Virus record (IMG/VR): IMGVR_UViG_3300045988_137377
Coordinates: 1-32,052 of that record
Strand: one strand, 5' to 3'
Origin: a virus
Length of the DNA stretch: 32,052 bases
The translations under genes were made by a program, and so were the position numbers. This document shows positions 4,955 to 14,079 of this stretch, in pieces; positions within the stretch are counted from its first letter, which is position 1; every line of letters starts with the position of its first letter. The notes below the pieces were generated by a model. That model saw only the letters and a program-made list of their open reading frames with translations, was not told where the DNA came from and did no database searches.

Positions 4955-5349
4955 TAGGAGACTTTACGCGTGGATACTTCGTAGTCCTCGACTGTACAAA
5001 ATTCCTCGCCAACGTAAGCGCGGTACACGGCAACCTCATTCAGGAATAACTCGTACCCATCTGGAATAAGCTCAGCAAATTCTTTAGCCAGGTACTTCTC
5101 TAAGGACTTGATAATTTCCTGGTGCCCCTCGATGATCTGCTGCCAGTACTCGGATGAATCGAATGCGGTGCCGTCTTTGACCTGCACTCGCGCAAGCCCG
5201 TTCTTTATGAAGTTTTCGGTGGCTTCTACTACCTTCTTGCCACTCTCGGTGTCTTTCACAAAGGGCATGTCTTCCAGTAGTTCTACCCATGCGGCTTTTT
5301 TGTCCTGGCGGTAGGTTAGGCTGATTGCGCCTTCGAGTGTTTCGCTCAT
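4954..5349 (-). CDS. Hypothetical protein (131 aa); start moved to ATG 5349
   Basis: MSETLEGA is preceded by AAAGGAAAGAAGAAA. The ORF-track extension to 5406 would run through the cassette F promoter and hairpin. Confidence 0.6.
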   Translation of the reverse strand: MSETLEGAISLTYRQDKKAAWVELLEDMPFVKDTESGKKVVEATENFIKNGLARVQVKDGTAFDSSEYWQQIIEGHQEIIKSLEKYLAKEFAELIPDGYELFLNEVAVYRAYVGEEFCTVEDYEVSTRKVS

Positions 5350-5428
5350 TTTCTTCTTTCCTTTCTTTCGACACCTCAAGTGTATCATGCAATACCAGTA
5401 ATGCAAAGCTGGTTTTGCATGAGGTGCA
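5350..5428 (-). promoter_or_regulatory. Early cassette F: same 38-nt architecture with different arms (TCATGCAA/TTGCATGA, 5385-5422), extended -10 TGATACACT (-10 at 5379-5384)
   Basis: Gene-sense reading is TCATGCAAAACCAGCTTTGCATTACTGGTATTGCATGATACACT...GAAAGAAAGGAAAGAAGAAAATG. A nested palindrome ATGCAAA/TTTGCAT is present. Confidence 0.5.
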
Positions 5429-5977
5429 TCACATACCCTCTAATGTCCGCATCTGCCTATCACGCTCACGCTCAACAGCCCCACGCCGCATAGAACCAGA
5501 CTCACCCACACCAAAGCTGCGCACAAGCGCACGCACCTCAGGAGGCGGCGGAACAGCCTCCCTTTCGCGCGGCGCACGCGGCGCATCAAGCACGCGCAAA
5601 TCAACCTCACTGCGCACAAACTCAGGTACAGCAGCATATGCTCGCTTCCATGACTCATACACGCGTACAGCAGCCTCGTAATCCTGCTTATCCTCAATTT
5701 CAAGAGACTTGAATTTGGCTGCGAGGCGCGAGCACCTTCCAAGCGCACCGTCAATCTCGGCCTTCATTTCCTGCCAGGTCTCCAAAATGTCCCCCGGTTG
5801 GAGAATAGATATGCGGCGCGTTGAATAAAGTCGCTTTTGCACCTCGCGGGCGTACTTGTCTGGCACCTCTGCACAAATTTCTGCCCACACCGTAAGGATT
5901 TCATCAGGTAGTGGCTTTAAGCGCTGATCTAGCCCGGTGGCGACCGTATAGAGCGCTCGCATTGTGTTTAGTTCCAT
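5429..5977 (-). CDS. Hypothetical protein (182 aa), translationally coupled to the Rep-like gene
   Basis: Overlaps the upstream stop by 10 nt. No motif recognised. Position suggests a replication accessory role (inference only). Confidence 0.55.
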   Translation of the reverse strand: MELNTMRALYTVATGLDQRLKPLPDEILTVWAEICAEVPDKYAREVQKRLYSTRRISILQPGDILETWQEMKAEIDGALGRCSRLAAKFKSLEIEDKQDYEAAVRVYESWKRAYAAVPEFVRSEVDLRVLDAPRAPREREAVPPPPEVRALVRSFGVGESGSMRRGAVERERDRQMRTLEGM

Positions 5978-10494: not shown

Positions 10495-10971
10495 TTAGCC
10501 TCCTCTCTTAGCGGCTCGCACAACCGGCAAAACGCCAGTCTGTGCCAATAGTATATTATCAACCCGTTCACGCTCATGCCGCATCTCATTGCGCACACCC
10601 TCAATATGCGTACGTAACTGAGAATGCTCTTCCAGGCCGTCAGATATAGCCTTGCTCAATTCGCGCTGCTTATCGCCCTGGCGTGACTGCTCAGCCAGTA
10701 TAAGGTCTAACCTGTCTCGCATTTCGTCCAGATCGTCACGCAAATTCGTACCATGATCGTTTTTTACCTGGTGCTTAGCTATCTCAACGTCTTTGCTGAC
10801 GACGTGCACTTTCTCACCAACAGTGCTAACCTGATCTGACAGTGTTGATAACTTGCTACTAACAGCCTTGTAAATATATATGCCCGTCGTCCCTGAGATG
10901 ACTATTGCGGCAGACATGATAATCAGTGCATCAACCACAGGATGCCCTGTTTTAGGTAATTCAATGTTCAC
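10495..10971 (-). CDS. Membrane-anchored coiled-coil protein (158 aa), first gene of the lysis cassette; start moved to GTG 10971
   Basis: GGGGGA lies 7 nt upstream of the GTG. One TM (VVDALIIMSAAIVISGTTGIYIY) is followed by a heptad-like charged region. The ORF-track start 11082 would run through a terminator and promoter. Confidence 0.55.
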   Translation of the reverse strand: MNIELPKTGHPVVDALIIMSAAIVISGTTGIYIYKAVSSKLSTLSDQVSTVGEKVHVVSKDVEIAKHQVKNDHGTNLRDDLDEMRDRLDLILAEQSRQGDKQRELSKAISDGLEEHSQLRTHIEGVRNEMRHERERVDNILLAQTGVLPVVRAAKRGG

Positions 10972-10994
10972 CCATATTCCCCCTTTTTTTGTCG

Positions 10995-11010
10995 CCTGAA
11001 TTATACCTCT
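10995..11010 (-). promoter_or_regulatory. Candidate lysis-cassette promoter (perfect TATAAT, plus coordinates 11000-11005)
   Basis: Minus-sense GAGGTATAATTC lies in an AT-rich gap directly after a terminator. No good -35. Confidence 0.4.
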
Positions 11011-11029
11011 AAAACATAGGAATACTTGA

Positions 11030-11071
11030 ATATAAAACTGCACCCGCACTAAACATAAAGCGCAGGTGCAG
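11030..11071 (-). terminator. Intrinsic terminator after the tail-fibre extension ORF
   Basis: Minus-sense ACTGCACCTGCGC...GTGCGGGTGCAGT followed by TTTTATATT. Confidence 0.6.
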
Positions 11072-11088
11072 TATATACTCAAGGTAAG

Positions 11089-12039
11089 CTATGACGCATC
11101 ATAAAACACGCCTGTAATCTCACCCCAAGTACCACCATGAAGCTCAATACCAGAACTAGACCGCAAATCGGAATAAGGGAACCACAGCAGCCGCTCGCGC
11201 GAACCATCAGCACGGATAACAGAGTAAACCATGACATTGCCCTCGCGTTTCAGCTCTATGCCCTTATCACCAGGTTTCACGTCTCGATTCTCATAACCGC
11301 GAGTATCAGTATTAGACCAACGAAGATCATACCCAGCCGTAGCGTTTATATACTCGCGCCCGATACCATCAGCCTTAGGCGCAGTAGAAACAGCGCGCTT
11401 CTCAATCGAGATAGCCGACCGCTCCCACGTGTCACCGCCACCATTAGTAGAAGCCTCAATCTTCGGCCCCTCACCAGTCCACGAAATGACAGCATACGAA
11501 CCATCATTCACAAACAGGCCAGAAGGTGATACAAGAGACTGCTTCTGGATAGGCGCATTATTGGGCGCCTCCAAAGGCTCACCAGTCTTACTCGACACAG
11601 GACGCTCGTAAGACCTTGCCTTACCATCCGGCGTTTTCAAGCCAGGTGCCCAGAAATACTCACGCAACACACCAGTTTTCATATCGCCGTCCTTCCAGCC
11701 GCCATGAGCCCAAGTGAATACCCACTGGATAGGCTTCTCACCCGGCTTAGGCGCATCCGCCACCTGATAGCTCAGCTGAGACCAATCAGAGTGCTTATCA
11801 CCCTTCACGGCGCGCACCTGGATAATACCAGACTGCCCCGCCCTAACAGTGAACACATGACCAGGCTGAGCAGGTGCGGGCGAAGACCCGTCAATAGCGA
11901 TCTGGTAGCCAGTAGCACCAGTAACAGTATCCCAAGTAACCGTCAAATTGGTGCCACTAGCCTCAACACGCAGACCAGTAGGCGGAGGAACATTATCCGC
12001 GTCAGAAACATGTTCACCTTTACCGCCCGCCTGTTCTCT
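11089..12039 (-). CDS. FN3-like domain plus unknown C-terminal domain; open from the TGA at 12040-12042, with no ATG/GTG/TTG before TTG 11946; probable readthrough extension (or severed part) of the fibre gene
   Basis: Same frame as 12040-14079. PPPTGLRVEASGTNLTVTWDTVTGATGYQIAIDG...SDWS is one FN3-like domain that begins upstream of the first possible start codon. Confidence 0.6.
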   Translation of the reverse strand, partial: REQAGGKGEHVSDADNVPPPTGLRVEASGTNLTVTWDTVTGATGYQIAIDGSSPAPAQPGHVFTVRAGQSGIIQVRAVKGDKHSDWSQLSYQVADAPKPGEKPIQWVFTWAHGGWKDGDMKTGVLREYFWAPGLKTPDGKARSYERPVSSKTGEPLEAPNNAPIQKQSLVSPSGLFVNDGSYAVISWTGEGPKIEASTNGGGDTWERSAISIEKRAVSTAPKADGIGREYINATAGYDLRWSNTDTRGYENRDVKPGDKGIELKREGNVMVYSVIRADGSRERLLWFPYSDLRSSSGIELHGGTWGEITGVFYDAS

Positions 12040-14079
12040 TCAAAAGACAGCACCCGGCACGATGCCGTAGAGATGTGTGCCTGCACGAACCAGGATAACC
12101 AGGCCACTAGCAGGCGCAGCACCATTCTTGGTCTGCCACGTCACACCCTCAGGGTGAGTAACATTATCCAGCAGGAAGAACCAAGCAACATCCGTACCCT
12201 CAGGCAGAGAATACGCACGACCGTTCACAACCTGCACAGTCTCCAACTGAGAAACACGCTTCTCAAACGGCAAAACATTATTAATCCAAGCCTTCGCACG
12301 ATCAGCAACCCACTCAGCCGGTGCCTTATCATACGGGTTCTGGTCTGGTTCATCCTCGCTACCATTACCAACAGCAAAAGTACGATCCGTAGCATATAGG
12401 TGCCCGATACCAGCCTTATCAGCCTTAGCGAACACCGCATCCACATTATCCTTAGTGATGCCATGCACAACATGCCAAAACCGCCACGACGGCATACCAT
12501 CATAATGGCGCGGATGAATATCAGTCACCTTCGCATCAATATACTTCTGAGCGTTAGACTCATAGGTTAACGCAATGTCGCACGCATCCATCATCTCAGG
12601 GCGCGTATTCGACCCAGGGTTAATAATAACTAGTGTATCCTGCCCAGCAATTTCCTTAATCTTCCCGTACAGGCGCTTATAGTACGGCATGATAGCCTTC
12701 TGCTCATCATCCCAGCCATTCACAACCTCGTCAAGGAAGATAGCGAACTTCTTTAGACCGCCACCATTCTTGTACCAAGTCACAAGGTTGCGCACCTGTG
12801 CAAGAATAGCTTCCTCAGTGTCTTCACGCACAGCCTCAGCAGAAACGTTCAGGTTCTTACGGATACGCTCAAAATACGCAGGCGTAGCAAACTCTGAGTT
12901 AGCGCCGTACCGAGTCTGCAAGTAGAACGCTACGTACTTAGCACCAGCCGCCTCAGCAAGCTTACCTTGAGTCAAGAAGTCGTTATCAACCTTGTCACCC
13001 CAGTTGCCAGAAGACTTATTCAGAATCACAATACCCAGCGTGTCACCAAATAACAGCGTCTTTTCCCACTGCGACACCTTACCGGGTTGGTCGCGGTTAT
13101 AGTAATCAGGCCAGTAATAGGTAACCATTGAAATATTGCGTTGTCCGAACCCGTGATTACGCTCACCAATATTCATATCGGCGATAGCCCGAGACACAAC
13201 CGGGGCAACATTCTTCTCAGACTCACGCAAAATATCAGTCTTAGCGGCATCAATCTTACCGTCAATAGTCTGATCTACAGAGTCTAGCGCCTCAGAAACG
13301 ATATTAGTCCGCGCCTGCTCGATACCCTGGCTAATCTTCGTGTCGATAGTGCTATTAACAGACTCAGTAGCCGCCTGCACAATACCAGGCTTAGCTTGCT
13401 CAATCTTAGAATCAATCGCAGAACCAGCAGTACGGAGAATATCACCCTTCAACACCTGCGACTTGGCGTCAAAAGCCGAATCAATCTTAGGGGTAACAAC
13501 AGACTCTATCTTCCCATCAATAGACGAATTGACAGACTGCACCACCTCATCCTTGATAGACGCAGACTTTTCTGTAATTACAGAAGAAACCTTCGCCTCA
13601 ATCGTAGGAGTCACACGCTCATCAATCTGCCGAGTAATCTCACTACCAGCCGCAGCCTGCACAGCTGCCGGCAGCTTCTCAGACAGTTGCGACTCGACAA
13701 CAGTAGCCGCCTGAGACTGAATCATCCCAGGAACAGTAGCCTGAATACGCTCGTCAGCAACAGCACCAGCATGCTCACGCACACCAGACTCAACAGCAGC
13801 CGGAATAGTAGTAGACACTACAGGAGCAATAGCATCAGCAACAGCAGACTGCACACTATCCTTCGCAGCCTGCACAGCCTCAGACTTCACACCAGCAACC
13901 TTATCGGTTGCGGCTTGCTCTGCCGCCTGCACAGCGACAGACTGAATATCCTGCTTCGCCTCGATTACCTTCTCGGTAGCAACCTGCTCAGCAGCCGCAC
14001 GAGCAGACGCAAGCGGGAGACCCGTAAGCGCCCCACTCTCATCAGCAATAACCAGCCGATTCAACCCGCTAATAGCCAT
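12040..14079 (-). CDS. Tail fibre / depolymerase: N-terminal Ala/Val/Gln-rich helical region with S-x-ID-x-KI repeats, central Spherulin4-like (GH135-like) glycosidase domain
   Basis: YYWPDYY...GIVILNKSSGNWG...YVAFYLQTRYG...FAIFLDEV...LVIINPGS...CDIALTYES follows the Spherulin4 (PF12138) block order. Position is after the baseplate genes. Confidence 0.65.
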   Translation of the reverse strand: MAISGLNRLVIADESGALTGLPLASARAAAEQVATEKVIEAKQDIQSVAVQAAEQAATDKVAGVKSEAVQAAKDSVQSAVADAIAPVVSTTIPAAVESGVREHAGAVADERIQATVPGMIQSQAATVVESQLSEKLPAAVQAAAGSEITRQIDERVTPTIEAKVSSVITEKSASIKDEVVQSVNSSIDGKIESVVTPKIDSAFDAKSQVLKGDILRTAGSAIDSKIEQAKPGIVQAATESVNSTIDTKISQGIEQARTNIVSEALDSVDQTIDGKIDAAKTDILRESEKNVAPVVSRAIADMNIGERNHGFGQRNISMVTYYWPDYYNRDQPGKVSQWEKTLLFGDTLGIVILNKSSGNWGDKVDNDFLTQGKLAEAAGAKYVAFYLQTRYGANSEFATPAYFERIRKNLNVSAEAVREDTEEAILAQVRNLVTWYKNGGGLKKFAIFLDEVVNGWDDEQKAIMPYYKRLYGKIKEIAGQDTLVIINPGSNTRPEMMDACDIALTYESNAQKYIDAKVTDIHPRHYDGMPSWRFWHVVHGITKDNVDAVFAKADKAGIGHLYATDRTFAVGNGSEDEPDQNPYDKAPAEWVADRAKAWINNVLPFEKRVSQLETVQVVNGRAYSLPEGTDVAWFFLLDNVTHPEGVTWQTKNGAAPASGLVILVRAGTHLYGIVPGAVF

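What the first reader, a model, noticed from the sequence alone, without database searches (positions are those of the whole stretch)
11944..12045. Single in-frame TGA splits the fibre/depolymerase from an FN3-domain ORF that has no start codon
The 679-aa fibre ORF ends VPGAVF-TGA, with the stop at 12040-12042. The next 31 codons (12039-11947) are in the same frame. They contain no stop and no ATG/GTG/TTG, and they read REQAGGKGEHVSDADNVPPPTGLRVEASGTN. That runs straight into LTVTWDTVTGATGYQIAIDG at the ORF-track TTG 11946. The linker-like AGGKGE...VPPP and the first beta-strands of the FN3-like domain (PPPTGLRVEASGTNLTVTW) therefore lie upstream of any usable initiation codon, and there is no SD before the TTG. 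The simplest readings are three: programmed UGA readthrough making a long (about 996-aa) and a short fibre isoform; a recent nonsense mutation that severs the distal FN3 and receptor-binding part; or a sequencing error. TGA is otherwise used as a normal stop here (for example in recT and the portal gene), so a recoded genetic code is unlikely.
Basis: seen in the sequence. Interest (0 to 1): 0.75.

Follow-up and report, generated by a model that had tools for sequence, protein, structure and literature searches.

The report
Conserved leaky stop in phage fibre
A family of phages from the human mouth keeps one leaky UGA stop codon, always at the same spot, between its tail-fibre enzyme and an in-frame binding module, so ribosomes that occasionally read through the stop probably make a rare long form of the fibre, a trick well known in RNA viruses that I could not find described for a tailed DNA phage.

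Summary
The 679-aa fibre ORF ends at TGA 12042..12040. The next 31 codons are in frame, open and lack ATG/GTG/TTG, and they run into a 285-codon ORF.

It is not an error or a recent mutation. All 18 distinct junction sequences from independent metagenome assemblies keep T-TGA-A at this codon. All keep a 93-nt, indel-free, stop-free spacer. The spacer evolves under protein-level purifying selection (omega about 0.45, P=2e-6).

UGA followed by A is the reported leaky context for tRNA-Trp. The codon after the stop is AGA, ATA or AAA (A-N-A), although AGA makes up only 3% of Arg codons here.

Sister lineages encode the same roughly 1000-aa architecture as one ORF. The more distant Rothia phage Spartoi group has two genes with their own SD and ATG.

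An AlphaFold model puts FN3 strand A upstream of the TTG. One lineage has no canonical start before codon 62.

Best reading (about 0.65): programmed UGA readthrough gives a major 73-kDa Sph3-like depolymerase fibre and a minor 107-kDa form carrying FN3 plus a beta-sandwich module.

No protein data exist. Internal initiation at the TTG cannot be excluded, and natural deletion variants show the module is dispensable.

The parts
13165..14079 (-). Fibre N-terminal region (aa 1 to about 305): long alpha-helical, repeat-rich shaft. Its length varies among relatives; short-form fibres are 624-728 aa.
   Evidence: AlphaFold secondary structure shows helices 23-114, 122-207 and 217-301, at low pLDDT as a monomer.
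12280..13152 (-). Sph3/Spherulin4-like (GH135-type) (beta/alpha)-barrel glycoside hydrolase domain (aa about 310-600), the putative depolymerase.
   Evidence: Pfam PF12138 Spherulin4, E=4.6e-16, 59.5 bits against a cut-off of 30.2, aa 350-588. The best Foldseek PDB match is 5c5g, Aspergillus clavatus Sph3, with target-normalised TM 0.68.
12043..12264 (-). C-terminal beta domain of the short isoform (RVSQLETVQVV...LVILVRAGTHLYGIVPGAVF). It ends 4 residues after the conserved YG[IY]VPG motif, which is a module-swap junction.
   Evidence: All 34 short-form relatives examined end at this same position. Fused relatives continue from here into a linker. P0045 and P0120 carry different distal modules after the same motif.
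12035..12043 (-). Recoding site: T-TGA-AGA-GA (stop at 12042..12040, +4 A at 12039).
   Evidence: TGA followed by A is invariant in 18 of 18 full junction haplotypes, and in the deletion variant L053. The codon after the stop is AGA, ATA or AAA. AGA is 3.3% of Arg codons in the window. This is the only TGA-A among 37 gene ends, in a phage that prefers TAA (23 of 37). UGA followed by +4A is reported as especially prone to misreading by tRNA-Trp (PMC5289835).
11974..12039 (-). Post-stop linker, codons 1-22 (REQAGGKGEHVSDADNVPPPTG). It can be translated only if the TGA is read through.
   Evidence: No indel or stop in 18 haplotypes. Pairwise dN/dS for the 31 post-stop codons is 0.31. By parsimony, omega is about 0.37 for codons 1-16 (P=2e-4) and about 0.45 for all 31 codons (P=2e-6).
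11982..12030 (-). Possible stem-loop starting 9 nt after the stop, a candidate readthrough stimulator. Unproven.
   Evidence: RNAalifold consensus, about -10 kcal/mol. 94% of cells pair, but only 1 pair shows a double change. Both the pairing percentage and the covariation score are in the upper tail of the shuffles but not beyond it (45 and 39 of 500 shuffles reach the observed values). Single-sequence z-scores are not significant. Rfam gives no significant hit.
11755..11982 (-). FN3 domain of the extension (extension residues about 20-95). Strand A is residues 24-28 (RVEAS) and strand B is residues 31-35.
   Evidence: AlphaFold model, mean pLDDT 74.5, about 78-93 across this domain. Foldseek matches FN3 domains, e.g. 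7jgu with target-normalised TM 0.73 and 4u3h. A profile search hits PF00041-bearing proteins and the FN3 domain of a GH31 enzyme.
11944..11946 (-). TTG, codon 32 after the stop: the only canonical in-frame start near the module's 5' end. It lies inside FN3 strand B.
   Evidence: Among the 18 haplotypes this codon is TTG in 13, ATG in 2, CTG in 2 and CTT in 1. The CTT case is L020, where the first canonical in-frame start is codon 62; its junction is replicated in the independent assembly L046. GAGG lies 15 nt upstream.
11092..11742 (-). C-terminal beta-sandwich domain of the extension (residues about 100-316), a putative carbohydrate- or receptor-binding module.
   Evidence: AlphaFold shows beta strands with several high-pLDDT blocks. 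Weak Foldseek similarity to CBM-type beta sandwiches (2c26, CBM74 in 7uwv). No Pfam or PHROG family matches. The function is inferred.
11089..11091 (-). TAG stop of the extension or module.
   Evidence: TAG in the window and all 13 relatives examined.
11037..11072 (-). Intrinsic terminator right after the module. It shows that fibre and module form one transcription unit that ends here.
   Evidence: 14-bp stem followed by a T-rich tail, found by the terminator scan. There is no comparable site between the TGA and the module. It is conserved in relatives.

Best explanation
The TGA at 12042..12040 is a conserved, leaky UGA-A termination codon. It sits exactly at the junction between the body of a tail-fibre depolymerase and a distal FN3 plus beta-sandwich module.

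Most ribosomes terminate there and make the 679-aa, 73-kDa fibre: a helical shaft, a Sph3-like glycosidase domain and a small beta domain. A minority decode UGA with a near-cognate tRNA, most likely tRNA-Trp, and continue for 316 more codons. That yields a 996-aa, 107-kDa isoform with a flexible linker, an FN3 domain and a putative carbohydrate-binding domain at the distal end. Fibres would then carry the extra module sub-stoichiometrically.

Shown here: the sequence arrangement, its strict conservation, protein-level selection on the post-stop codons, fused orthologues in sister phages, the domain assignments, and co-transcription.

Inferred: that readthrough really occurs, its efficiency, the amino acid inserted, and what the module does.
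For: 1. All 18 distinct full junction haplotypes have TGA followed by A at the same codon, and no sense revertant was found with a pattern that left the stop codon free. They come from ENA, Logan, IMG/VR and JGI assemblies, and several are replicated in independent samples.
2. The 93-nt spacer has no indel and no stop in any haplotype. Pairwise dN/dS is 0.31, against 0.21-0.22 in the flanking domains. By parsimony with an empirical mutation spectrum, omega is about 0.45 (P=2e-6), and about 0.37 (P=2e-4) for codons 1-16 alone.
3. There are signs of selection on the nucleotide context. The codon after the stop is AGA, ATA or AAA, so the amino acid changes while A at +4 and +6 stays, although AGA is only 3.3% of Arg codons. 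The phage prefers TAA (23 of 37 gene ends) and this is its only TGA-A. Stops of 5 of the 7 neighbouring genes examined flip between TAA and TAG among the same relatives, while this one never changes. UGA followed by +4A is the context reported as prone to tRNA-Trp misreading (PMC5289835).
4. Sister lineages (L021-L024, L007, P0045, P0048 and others) encode a colinear protein, mostly 840-1036 aa, as one ORF. It has a linker and no stop at this point, so the long product is a genuine architecture.
5. FN3 strand A (extension residues 24-28) lies upstream of the TTG.
6. The start codon at position 32 is not conserved. It is CTG in L002 and L052 and CTT in L020 and L046, where the first canonical in-frame start is codon 62.
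7. There is no terminator or promoter between the two ORFs, and a strong terminator follows the module.
8. The TGA-type fibre is common and not a rare defective variant. Clusters have up to 129 member sequences.
Against: - There is no proteomic, ribosome-profiling or reporter evidence. Readthrough efficiency in the presumed Rothia host is unknown.
- No RNA stimulator is supported by covariation.
- A start-capable codon (TTG or ATG) is present at position 32 in 15 of 18 haplotypes, with a GAGG 15 nt upstream.
- Spartoi-like phages express the homologous module as a separate gene starting at the same strand. The module could therefore also, or instead, be made on its own.
- Selection on the linker is weaker than on the flanking domains.
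- The module can be lost. L053 and L054 carry an out-of-frame deletion of about 860 nt, and L052 has a second in-frame TGA inside the module. This fits an accessory role, but it also fits relaxed constraint after a truncation.
- The stop-free state of the 31 codons alone is not significant; 12% of neutral simulations stay stop-free.
Confidence: 0.65

Rival explanations
1. Split gene. The TGA is a true terminator, and the module is made as a separate 285-aa (31-kDa) protein. Translation would start at the TTG or ATG at codon 32, for example by termination-reinitiation or weak SD-driven initiation. The protein would then bind the fibre non-covalently, as Spartoi gp23 presumably does. Any readthrough would be incidental.
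For: - TTG or ATG is present at codon 32 in 15 of 18 haplotypes, and two lineages changed TTG to ATG.
- A GAGG lies upstream of it.
- Spartoi-like phages have exactly this split, with the downstream gene beginning MAMTTVTW at strand B behind a good SD.
- Gene callers annotate it this way.
Against: - It does not explain protein-level purifying selection on the 31 codons upstream of the start, nor the strict in-frame, indel-free 93-nt spacer.
- L020 and L046 have no canonical start before codon 62, and L002 and L052 have CTG at codon 32.
- The GAGG is 15 nt away and is absent in the ATG lineages.
- FN3 strand A would be lost.
- In the truly split Spartoi clade, the in-frame translation upstream of the downstream gene's start runs into stop codons within a few codons in all 8 loci, unlike the 31 open codons here.
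Confidence: 0.2
2. Pseudogenisation. An old nonsense mutation cut off the distal module, which is now dispensable and slowly decaying.
For: L053 and L054 have deleted nearly the whole module. L052 has a second in-frame TGA in it. The short fibre ends at a clean domain boundary.
Against: The module evolves under strong purifying selection across 18 haplotypes. Omega is about 0.22 for its first 60 codons, the same as in the fibre body. The module is full length in 17 of 18 full haplotypes. The TGA-type is abundant. A dead module would not keep frame with the upstream ORF.
Confidence: 0.07
3. UGA is specifically decoded rather than leaky: selenocysteine insertion, a suppressor tRNA, or a host or phage genetic code in which TGA is a sense codon.
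For: Oral metagenomes do contain TGA-recoded lineages (own knowledge). Nothing in this window points that way.
Against: - There is no tRNA gene in the window.
- Six other genes end in TGA at the expected lengths, including RecT, the portal and TerL.
- There is no SECIS or other Rfam hit at the site.
- The closest characterised relatives infect Rothia and other Micrococcaceae. The endolysin is 73% identical to Rothia phage Spartoi lysin A. Those hosts use the standard code (own knowledge).
Confidence: 0.03
4. Sequencing or assembly error, or a very recent mutation in this one genome.
For: None beyond the prior probability of such an error.
Against: The same TGA is present in 18 different haplotypes from many samples and assemblers. 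The exact 679-aa product of the window is on at least 7 contigs.
Confidence: 0.01

Closest known systems
Q-beta (Allolevivirus) A1 read-through protein
   Same: A leaky UGA at the end of a major virion protein gene is occasionally decoded, extending the protein in frame with a C-terminal domain. The result is a minor structural isoform from one mRNA. Q-beta is the founding case of in-frame readthrough (PMC8310308). No elaborate signal is needed beyond the stop-codon context.
   Different: Q-beta is an ssRNA phage of E. coli and the extended protein is the coat protein. Here the genome is a roughly 32-kb tailed dsDNA phage of an actinobacterial (Rothia-like) host, the protein is a tail-fibre depolymerase, and the extension carries FN3 plus a putative binding domain. 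There is no sequence relationship.
C-terminal Ig-like or FN3 extensions of tailed-phage structural proteins made by programmed frameshifting (SPP1 gp17.1*, T3/T7 gene 10B, Listeria PSA/A118/A500, Lactobacillus A2)
   Same: Recoding at the end of a structural gene adds an Ig-like or FN3 domain to a fraction of the subunits. In SPP1 the ratio is 3:1 and the FN3 domain is dispensable for infection (PMC7666168; PMC5009743). Here too the added part starts with FN3, and natural deletion variants show it is dispensable.
   Different: Those cases use a +1 or -1 frameshift at slippery sites into another frame. Here the extension is in the zero frame behind a stop codon, and the slippery-looking CTTTTGA is unique to the window. 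The reviews I read list frameshifting for DNA phages and Q-beta for readthrough, and my literature searches found no report of readthrough in a tailed phage structural gene. This is absence in the searched library, not proof.
Fused and split orthologues in related oral phages (L021-L024, L007, P0045; Rothia phage Spartoi gp21-gp23)
   Same: Same gene position after the tape-measure, distal-tail and tip genes, and the same domains: Sph3-like domain, small beta domain ending YG.VPG, then FN3 plus beta sandwich.
   Different: In the fused forms a Pro/Ala-rich or other linker replaces the stop. In Spartoi-like phages the pieces are separate genes (gp21, gp22, gp23), and the module gene has its own SD and ATG and begins at FN3 strand B. 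The window clade is the only one with a stop plus an in-frame, start-less linker.
Phage stop-codon reassignment (code 15 or code 4 phages, e.g. crAss-like)
   Same: An in-frame stop codon inside what is functionally one late structural gene.
   Different: Reassignment affects many genes and usually comes with suppressor tRNAs. Here there is a single site, no tRNA, and TGA terminates other genes normally.

Membership tests
Programmed stop-codon readthrough (Q-beta A1 type, context-dependent leaky UGA) | An in-frame ORF directly follows the stop and has no initiation signals of its own at its 5' end | tested here: met
   31 open codons without ATG/GTG/TTG. The spacer is in frame and indel-free in 18 of 18 haplotypes. 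Caveat: a TTG at codon 32 with a GAGG 15 nt upstream.
Programmed stop-codon readthrough (Q-beta A1 type, context-dependent leaky UGA) | Stop-codon identity and leaky 3' context conserved among relatives | tested here: met
   TGA followed by A in 18 of 18 full haplotypes plus L053. The next codon is A-N-A, using rare codons. Stops of 5 of 7 neighbouring genes vary. Context literature: PMC5289835.
Programmed stop-codon readthrough (Q-beta A1 type, context-dependent leaky UGA) | Codons immediately after the stop evolve as coding sequence | tested here: met
   Pairwise dN/dS 0.31. Parsimony omega about 0.45 (P=2e-6), and about 0.37 (P=2e-4) for codons 1-16.
Programmed stop-codon readthrough (Q-beta A1 type, context-dependent leaky UGA) | The extended protein is actually made, and at a level above background error | not testable with these tools
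   Needs mass spectrometry, a western blot or a reporter assay. Diagnostic tryptic peptides were computed.
Programmed stop-codon readthrough with a 3' RNA stimulator (MuLV or alphavirus type) | A conserved stem-loop or pseudoknot about 8 nt downstream, supported by covariation | tested here: inconclusive
   A candidate stem-loop begins 9 nt after the UGA and 94% of cells pair. Only one pair shows a double change, and both the pairing percentage and the covariation score are in the upper tail of the shuffles but not beyond it (45 and 39 of 500 shuffles reach the observed values). Synonymous divergence in the linker (dS 0.50) is not reduced.
Programmed ribosomal frameshift extension (SPP1 gp17.1*, T7 10B type) | The extension is encoded in the +1 or -1 frame behind a conserved slippery site | tested here: not met
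   The extension is in the zero frame. The codon before the stop varies (TTT, GGT, GTT, GAT).
Reassigned genetic code or suppressor-tRNA phage | Many in-frame stops of one type across genes, and often a phage-encoded suppressor tRNA | tested here: not met
   No tRNA gene. Of the six other TGA-ending genes, five are followed by another stop within 7-26 codons. The sixth (5429..5977) is followed by 114 open codons, but the annotated downstream gene is in a different frame.
Selenocysteine recoding | A SECIS hairpin immediately 3' of the UGA, and Sec machinery in the host | tested here: not met
   No SECIS or other Rfam family at E<=10, apart from a chance sRNA hit at E=0.69. Host machinery was not testable.
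Independent two-gene arrangement (Spartoi gp22/gp23 type) | The downstream gene has its own SD at normal spacing and a canonical start conserved among relatives | tested here: not met
   GAGG lies 15 nt from the TTG. The start codon is lost in L002, L052 and L020. For contrast, Spartoi has GGAGAGTGGTAAGAG-ATG.
Spherulin4 / Sph3-like glycoside hydrolase (GH135-type) - upstream fibre domain | Pfam PF12138 match above the gathering score, and a (beta/alpha)-barrel fold like Sph3 | tested here: met
   59.5 bits against a cut-off of 30.2. The top PDB fold match is 5c5g Sph3, target-normalised TM 0.68. Catalytic residues and substrate were not tested.
Fibronectin type III domain - start of the extension | A seven-stranded beta sandwich matching FN3 structures | tested here: met
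   AlphaFold strands 24-92 at high pLDDT. Foldseek matches FN3 domains 7jgu, 4u3h and 2n1k. Profile hits to PF00041 proteins. Pfam PF00041 itself did not reach E<=0.01 on the single sequence.

The most novel reading that the evidence does not exclude
This may be a genuinely selected recoding signal (UGA-A-N-A, perhaps helped by a small hairpin 9 nt downstream). It would set a fixed, or physiologically tunable, low ratio of a long receptor-binding isoform to a short depolymerase-only isoform of a tail fibre. To my knowledge that would be the first programmed stop-codon readthrough in a tailed dsDNA phage.

The family would also preserve all three states of one receptor-binding gene: fused, leaky-stop and fully split. 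That would make a leaky stop a stable evolutionary intermediate in gene fission or module exchange. One lineage (L052) has a second in-frame TGA at the next inter-domain linker, which might make three nested isoforms.
Probability: 0.5. Interest if true: 0.8.

Novelty: new variant of a known kind. Interest (0 to 1): 0.68.

Why it matters
If readthrough is real, tailed DNA phages use the same trick as Q-beta and many eukaryotic RNA viruses, not only frameshifting, to decorate virions with sub-stoichiometric binding domains.

Annotation would be affected. Gene callers currently split this locus into a 'fibre' and an orphan ORF with an arbitrary start (285 or 306 aa). In-frame TGA junctions in receptor-binding genes should be screened as possible recoding sites.

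Biologically, the ratio of short to long fibres would depend on host termination efficiency, that is on RF2 and tRNA-Trp. That could give phenotypic heterogeneity in adsorption or host range within one burst.

The natural series of fused, leaky-stop, split and deleted forms in abundant human oral phages is a ready-made comparative system. It could be used to test what the FN3 plus binding module contributes and how modular receptor-binding genes break apart.

Tried and rejected
- Megablast of the locus against GenBank phages found no match. tblastn found only the distant Rothia phage Spartoi and a Streptococcus thermophilus phage.
- The scan of representative bacterial genomes for the module found nothing, so there is no prophage context.
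- PHROGs has no family for either protein. A sequence search of the PDB with the fibre found nothing.
- No tRNA or suppressor tRNA was found. No Rfam or SECIS match was found.
- RNA structure: single-sequence folds have non-significant z-scores. The alifold stem-loop has no covariation support. I do not claim a stimulator.
- Neutral simulation of 'no stop in 31 codons' is not significant on its own (12%). I rely on the asymmetry between synonymous and non-synonymous changes.
- I tried the real intergenic region after the module's TAG as a control. It shows six different lengths among 11 haplotypes and frame breaks, but the indels sit in A/G homopolymers and the region holds a conserved terminator and promoter. 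It is only a weak control.
- RF2-like +1 frameshift at C-TTT-TGA: rejected. It is present only in the window, while relatives have GGT, GTT or GAT before the TGA.
- GTG at post-stop codon 11, used by a gene caller for P0001: rejected as a conserved start. The codon is GTG in 5 of 18 haplotypes and otherwise GTA, GTT, GTC or ATA.
- The antisense ORF 11704..12399 (+) spans the junction in codon register. I rejected it as the selected frame because variation is concentrated at third positions of the minus-strand codons.
- The other 'open after stop' cases in the window are not comparable. Gene 5429..5977 (TGA plus 114 codons) runs into a different-frame real gene. After TAG 11089, relatives break the frame.
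- Literature searches for readthrough in tailed-phage structural genes returned nothing relevant.

Full report
**1. The observation**

On the minus strand the 679-aa ORF 14079..12043 ends ...LYGIVPGAVF, followed by TGA at 12042..12040. The next 31 codons (12039..11947) are in frame and contain no stop and no ATG/GTG/TTG. They read REQAGGKGEHVSDADNVPPPTGLRVEASGTN and run into TTG 11946 and LTVTWDTVTGATGYQIAIDG. The frame stays open for 316 codons to TAG 11091..11089.

In a single genome this is not beyond chance. A downstream gene is in frame one time in three, and 31 random codons are stop-free about 23% of the time. The question is decided by relatives.

**2. Context**

The window looks like a complete siphophage genome of about 32 kb; related contigs are 30-33 kb. 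On the minus strand the order is:
- TerL, portal, capsid and tail tube;
- a 1292-aa ORF whose counterparts in related contigs carry the Pfam PhageMin_Tail family, taken to be the tape measure, followed by two tail-tip proteins;
- a 155-aa protein, the fibre, the in-frame module and a terminator;
- the lysis genes.

The endolysin is 73% identical to Rothia phage Spartoi lysin A. The portal resembles those of Arthrobacter, Glutamicibacter and Brevibacterium phages. The host is therefore probably Rothia or a close actinobacterium, and the related contigs come largely from human-associated metagenome samples.

The fibre has three parts:
- a long helical N-terminal shaft;
- a Spherulin4 domain (PF12138, E=4.6e-16), whose model best matches Aspergillus Sph3, target-normalised TM 0.68;
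- a small C-terminal beta domain.

The AlphaFold model of the 316-aa extension (pLDDT 74.5) shows a disordered linker, an FN3 domain and a larger beta sandwich with weak CBM-like matches. FN3 strand A is residues 24-28 and strand B is residues 31-35. The TTG is residue 32, so it lies inside strand B.

**3. Comparative evidence**

Homologues of the module and the fibre were traced to their contigs.

(a) The stop is conserved. I recovered 18 distinct full junction haplotypes from ENA, Logan, IMG/VR and JGI assemblies. All have TGA at exactly this codon, always preceded by T and followed by A. A pattern search that left the stop codon unspecified found no sense revertant. All 34 short-form fibre proteins examined, which fall in 90%-identity clusters of up to 129 member sequences, end at this same residue. 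They differ in shaft length (624-728 aa) and even in catalytic-domain allele.

(b) The spacer evolves as coding sequence.
- It is always 93 nt, with no indel and no stop.
- Pairwise dN/dS is 0.31, against 0.22 and 0.21 for the flanking 45 and 60 codons.
- On a parsimony tree with a mutation spectrum taken from four-fold sites, 65 of 141 changes are synonymous, against 28% expected. That gives omega of about 0.45 (P=2e-6).
- Codons 1-16 alone, which are pure linker, give omega of about 0.37 (P=2e-4).
- Synonymous divergence in the spacer (dS 0.50) is not reduced. The conservation therefore acts on the protein and not on an RNA element.

(c) The nucleotide context looks selected. The codon after the stop is AGA in 14 haplotypes, ATA in 2 and AAA in 1 (plus ATA in L053). 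The amino acid changes (R, I, K), but A at +4 and +6 stays. AGA is only 3.3% of Arg codons in the window. The phage uses TAA for 23 of 37 gene ends, and this is its only TGA-A. Stops of 5 of the 7 neighbouring genes examined alternate between TAA and TAG among the same genomes. UGA followed by +4A is reported to be particularly prone to misreading by tRNA-Trp (Engelberg-Kulka 1981, as cited in PMC5289835). UGA is the leakiest stop, with 6% readthrough quoted for a B. subtilis reporter (PMC7918605).

(d) Sister lineages encode the whole thing as one ORF.
- L021-L023 and many database proteins of 948-1036 aa are colinear with the hypothetical 996-aa product. They have a Pro/Ala-rich linker in place of stop plus linker.
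- L024, P0121, L007 and P0045 do the same with a more divergent module.
- P0045 has the window-type beta domain ...GIVPGAAG followed by a sense codon and a different cassette.
- P0120 has an unrelated distal domain after the same motif.

The stop therefore sits on a module-exchange junction, and the long architecture is genuine.

(e) The more distant Spartoi-like phages have the pieces as separate genes. gp22 ends with the homologous beta domain plus a short EQ..AGG-like tail. gp23 has a good SD and ATG and begins MAMTTVTW, that is at strand B.

(f) The putative internal start is not conserved. Codon 32 is TTG in 13 haplotypes, ATG in 2, CTG in 2 and CTT in 1. In the CTT lineage (L020, replicated in L046) the first canonical in-frame start is codon 62, deep inside FN3. 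A GAGG precedes the TTG, but at a spacing of 15 nt, and it is missing in the ATG lineages.

(g) No terminator or promoter separates the two ORFs. A 14-bp-stem terminator follows the module's TAG.

**4. Interpretation**

- Sequencing error and recent mutation are excluded.
- A reassigned code, a suppressor tRNA and selenocysteine are very unlikely. There is no tRNA gene, six other genes end normally in TGA, and there is no SECIS.
- A frameshift is not involved. [quoted passage not shown]
- The explanation that accounts for all the data is programmed, context-dependent UGA readthrough. It would produce a major 73.3-kDa depolymerase fibre and a minor 107.5-kDa isoform extended by linker, FN3 and a putative binding domain.

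I put this at about 0.65. The main rival, at about 0.2, is that the module is translated separately from the TTG or ATG, as in Spartoi. That rival does not explain selection on the upstream codons, the strict frame, or the lineages without a start. Both routes could coexist.

Pseudogenisation (about 0.07) is suggested by two derived lineages. L053 and L054 carry an out-of-frame deletion of about 860 nt that removes the module. L052 has a second in-frame TGA (CCT GGT changed to CAT TGA) exactly in the linker between FN3 and the C-terminal domain. However, the module is under purifying selection as strong as the fibre body (omega about 0.22) and is intact in 17 of 18 full haplotypes. These variants more plausibly show that the module is accessory. 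The FN3 extension of SPP1 gp17.1*, added by frameshifting at a 3:1 ratio, is likewise dispensable (PMC7666168).

A candidate stem-loop starts 9 nt after the stop. It is conserved in sequence but has no covariation support, so I do not claim a stimulator.

**5. Relation to what is known**

Mechanistically this is closest to the Q-beta A1 protein, where a leaky UGA extends a virion protein (PMC8310308). Functionally it is closest to the Ig-like or FN3 C-terminal extensions that tailed phages add by +1 or -1 frameshifting. Atkins et al. note that such domains can land in frame or out of frame, and are then expressed by standard decoding or by frameshifting (PMC5009743). Stop-codon readthrough is not listed among those routes. 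Six literature searches found no report of it in a tailed-phage structural gene. That is absence within the searched library only.

I therefore rate this a new variant of a known kind. It is not proven experimentally, but the comparative support is unusually clean, and nature has provided fused, split and deleted controls.

**6. Verdict**

- Observation: confirmed.
One of its three readings is favoured and two are refuted.
- Interest: 0.68.

The decisive test is detection of the linker and junction peptides, or of a 107-kDa species, together with reporter assays that vary the +4 and +6 A.

Noticed in passing
L052:3672-3674 (ENA ERZ27994449 k141_144115); equivalent to window about 11740-11742: One lineage has a second in-frame TGA (CCT GGT GAG changed to CAT TGA GAG, three substitutions within 6 nt). 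It lies exactly in the linker between FN3 and the C-terminal domain, and the rest of the module is intact. Four further contigs have the same neighbouring gene calls. It could be a second leaky stop giving three nested isoforms, or the start of decay.
   Followed up: partly
L053:3547-3800 and L054 (30,202-bp contigs): A natural out-of-frame deletion of about 860 nt removes almost the whole FN3 plus beta-sandwich module. It joins linker codon 6 to ...LQWFPYS, and TGA-ATA is retained. The module is therefore dispensable for at least this lineage.
   Followed up: partly
window 10965-11091 (-): After the module's TAG come a conserved 14-bp-stem terminator, a promoter-like TTCAAG-17-TATAAT and an A-run/G-run of variable length (spacer 122-127 nt among relatives). 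The real start of the next, holin-like gene is the GTG at about 10971 (VNIELPKTG), not the TTG at 11082 listed as a 195-aa ORF. Relatives break the frame upstream of that GTG.
   Followed up: partly
window 12043-12060 (-); P0045, P0120, P0100: The motif YG[IY]VPG at the end of the fibre's beta domain is a module-exchange hotspot. After it, relatives carry three FN3-module alleles (about 100%, 65% and 45% identity) or an unrelated non-FN3 domain. Only the first allele is always preceded by the TGA.
   Followed up: partly
L001:6829-9407 (Rothia phage Spartoi genes 21-23) and L025-L032: In Spartoi-like phages the same parts are three separate genes. gp22 ends with the homologous beta domain plus an EQ..AGG-like tail. 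gp23 starts at FN3 strand B, so its FN3 lacks strand A. Whether another chain supplies that strand is unknown.
   Followed up: no
window 12040-12047 (-): In the window only, the site reads C-TTT-TGA-A. This resembles the RF2 +1 frameshift site CUU-UGA-C, and the +1 frame is open for about 31 codons (the 60-aa ORF 11943..12125). It is not conserved in relatives.
   Followed up: yes
window 11704-12399 (+): A 231-aa antisense ORF spans the junction in exact codon register with the minus-strand frame. The pattern of variable sites shows the minus-strand frame is the selected one, so this ORF is most likely an artefact of codon usage.
   Followed up: yes
window 13165-14079 (-) and relatives P0038-P0117: The helical shaft of the fibre varies in length through gain and loss of repeat units of about 20-30 aa (...SKIE.AKP.IVQAA..SV...). 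Short-form fibres range from 624 to 728 aa.
   Followed up: no
window 5084-5428 (-): Gene 5429..5977 also ends in TGA and is followed by 114 open in-frame codons. The annotated downstream gene in relatives is in a different frame, so this looks like chance.
   Followed up: partly
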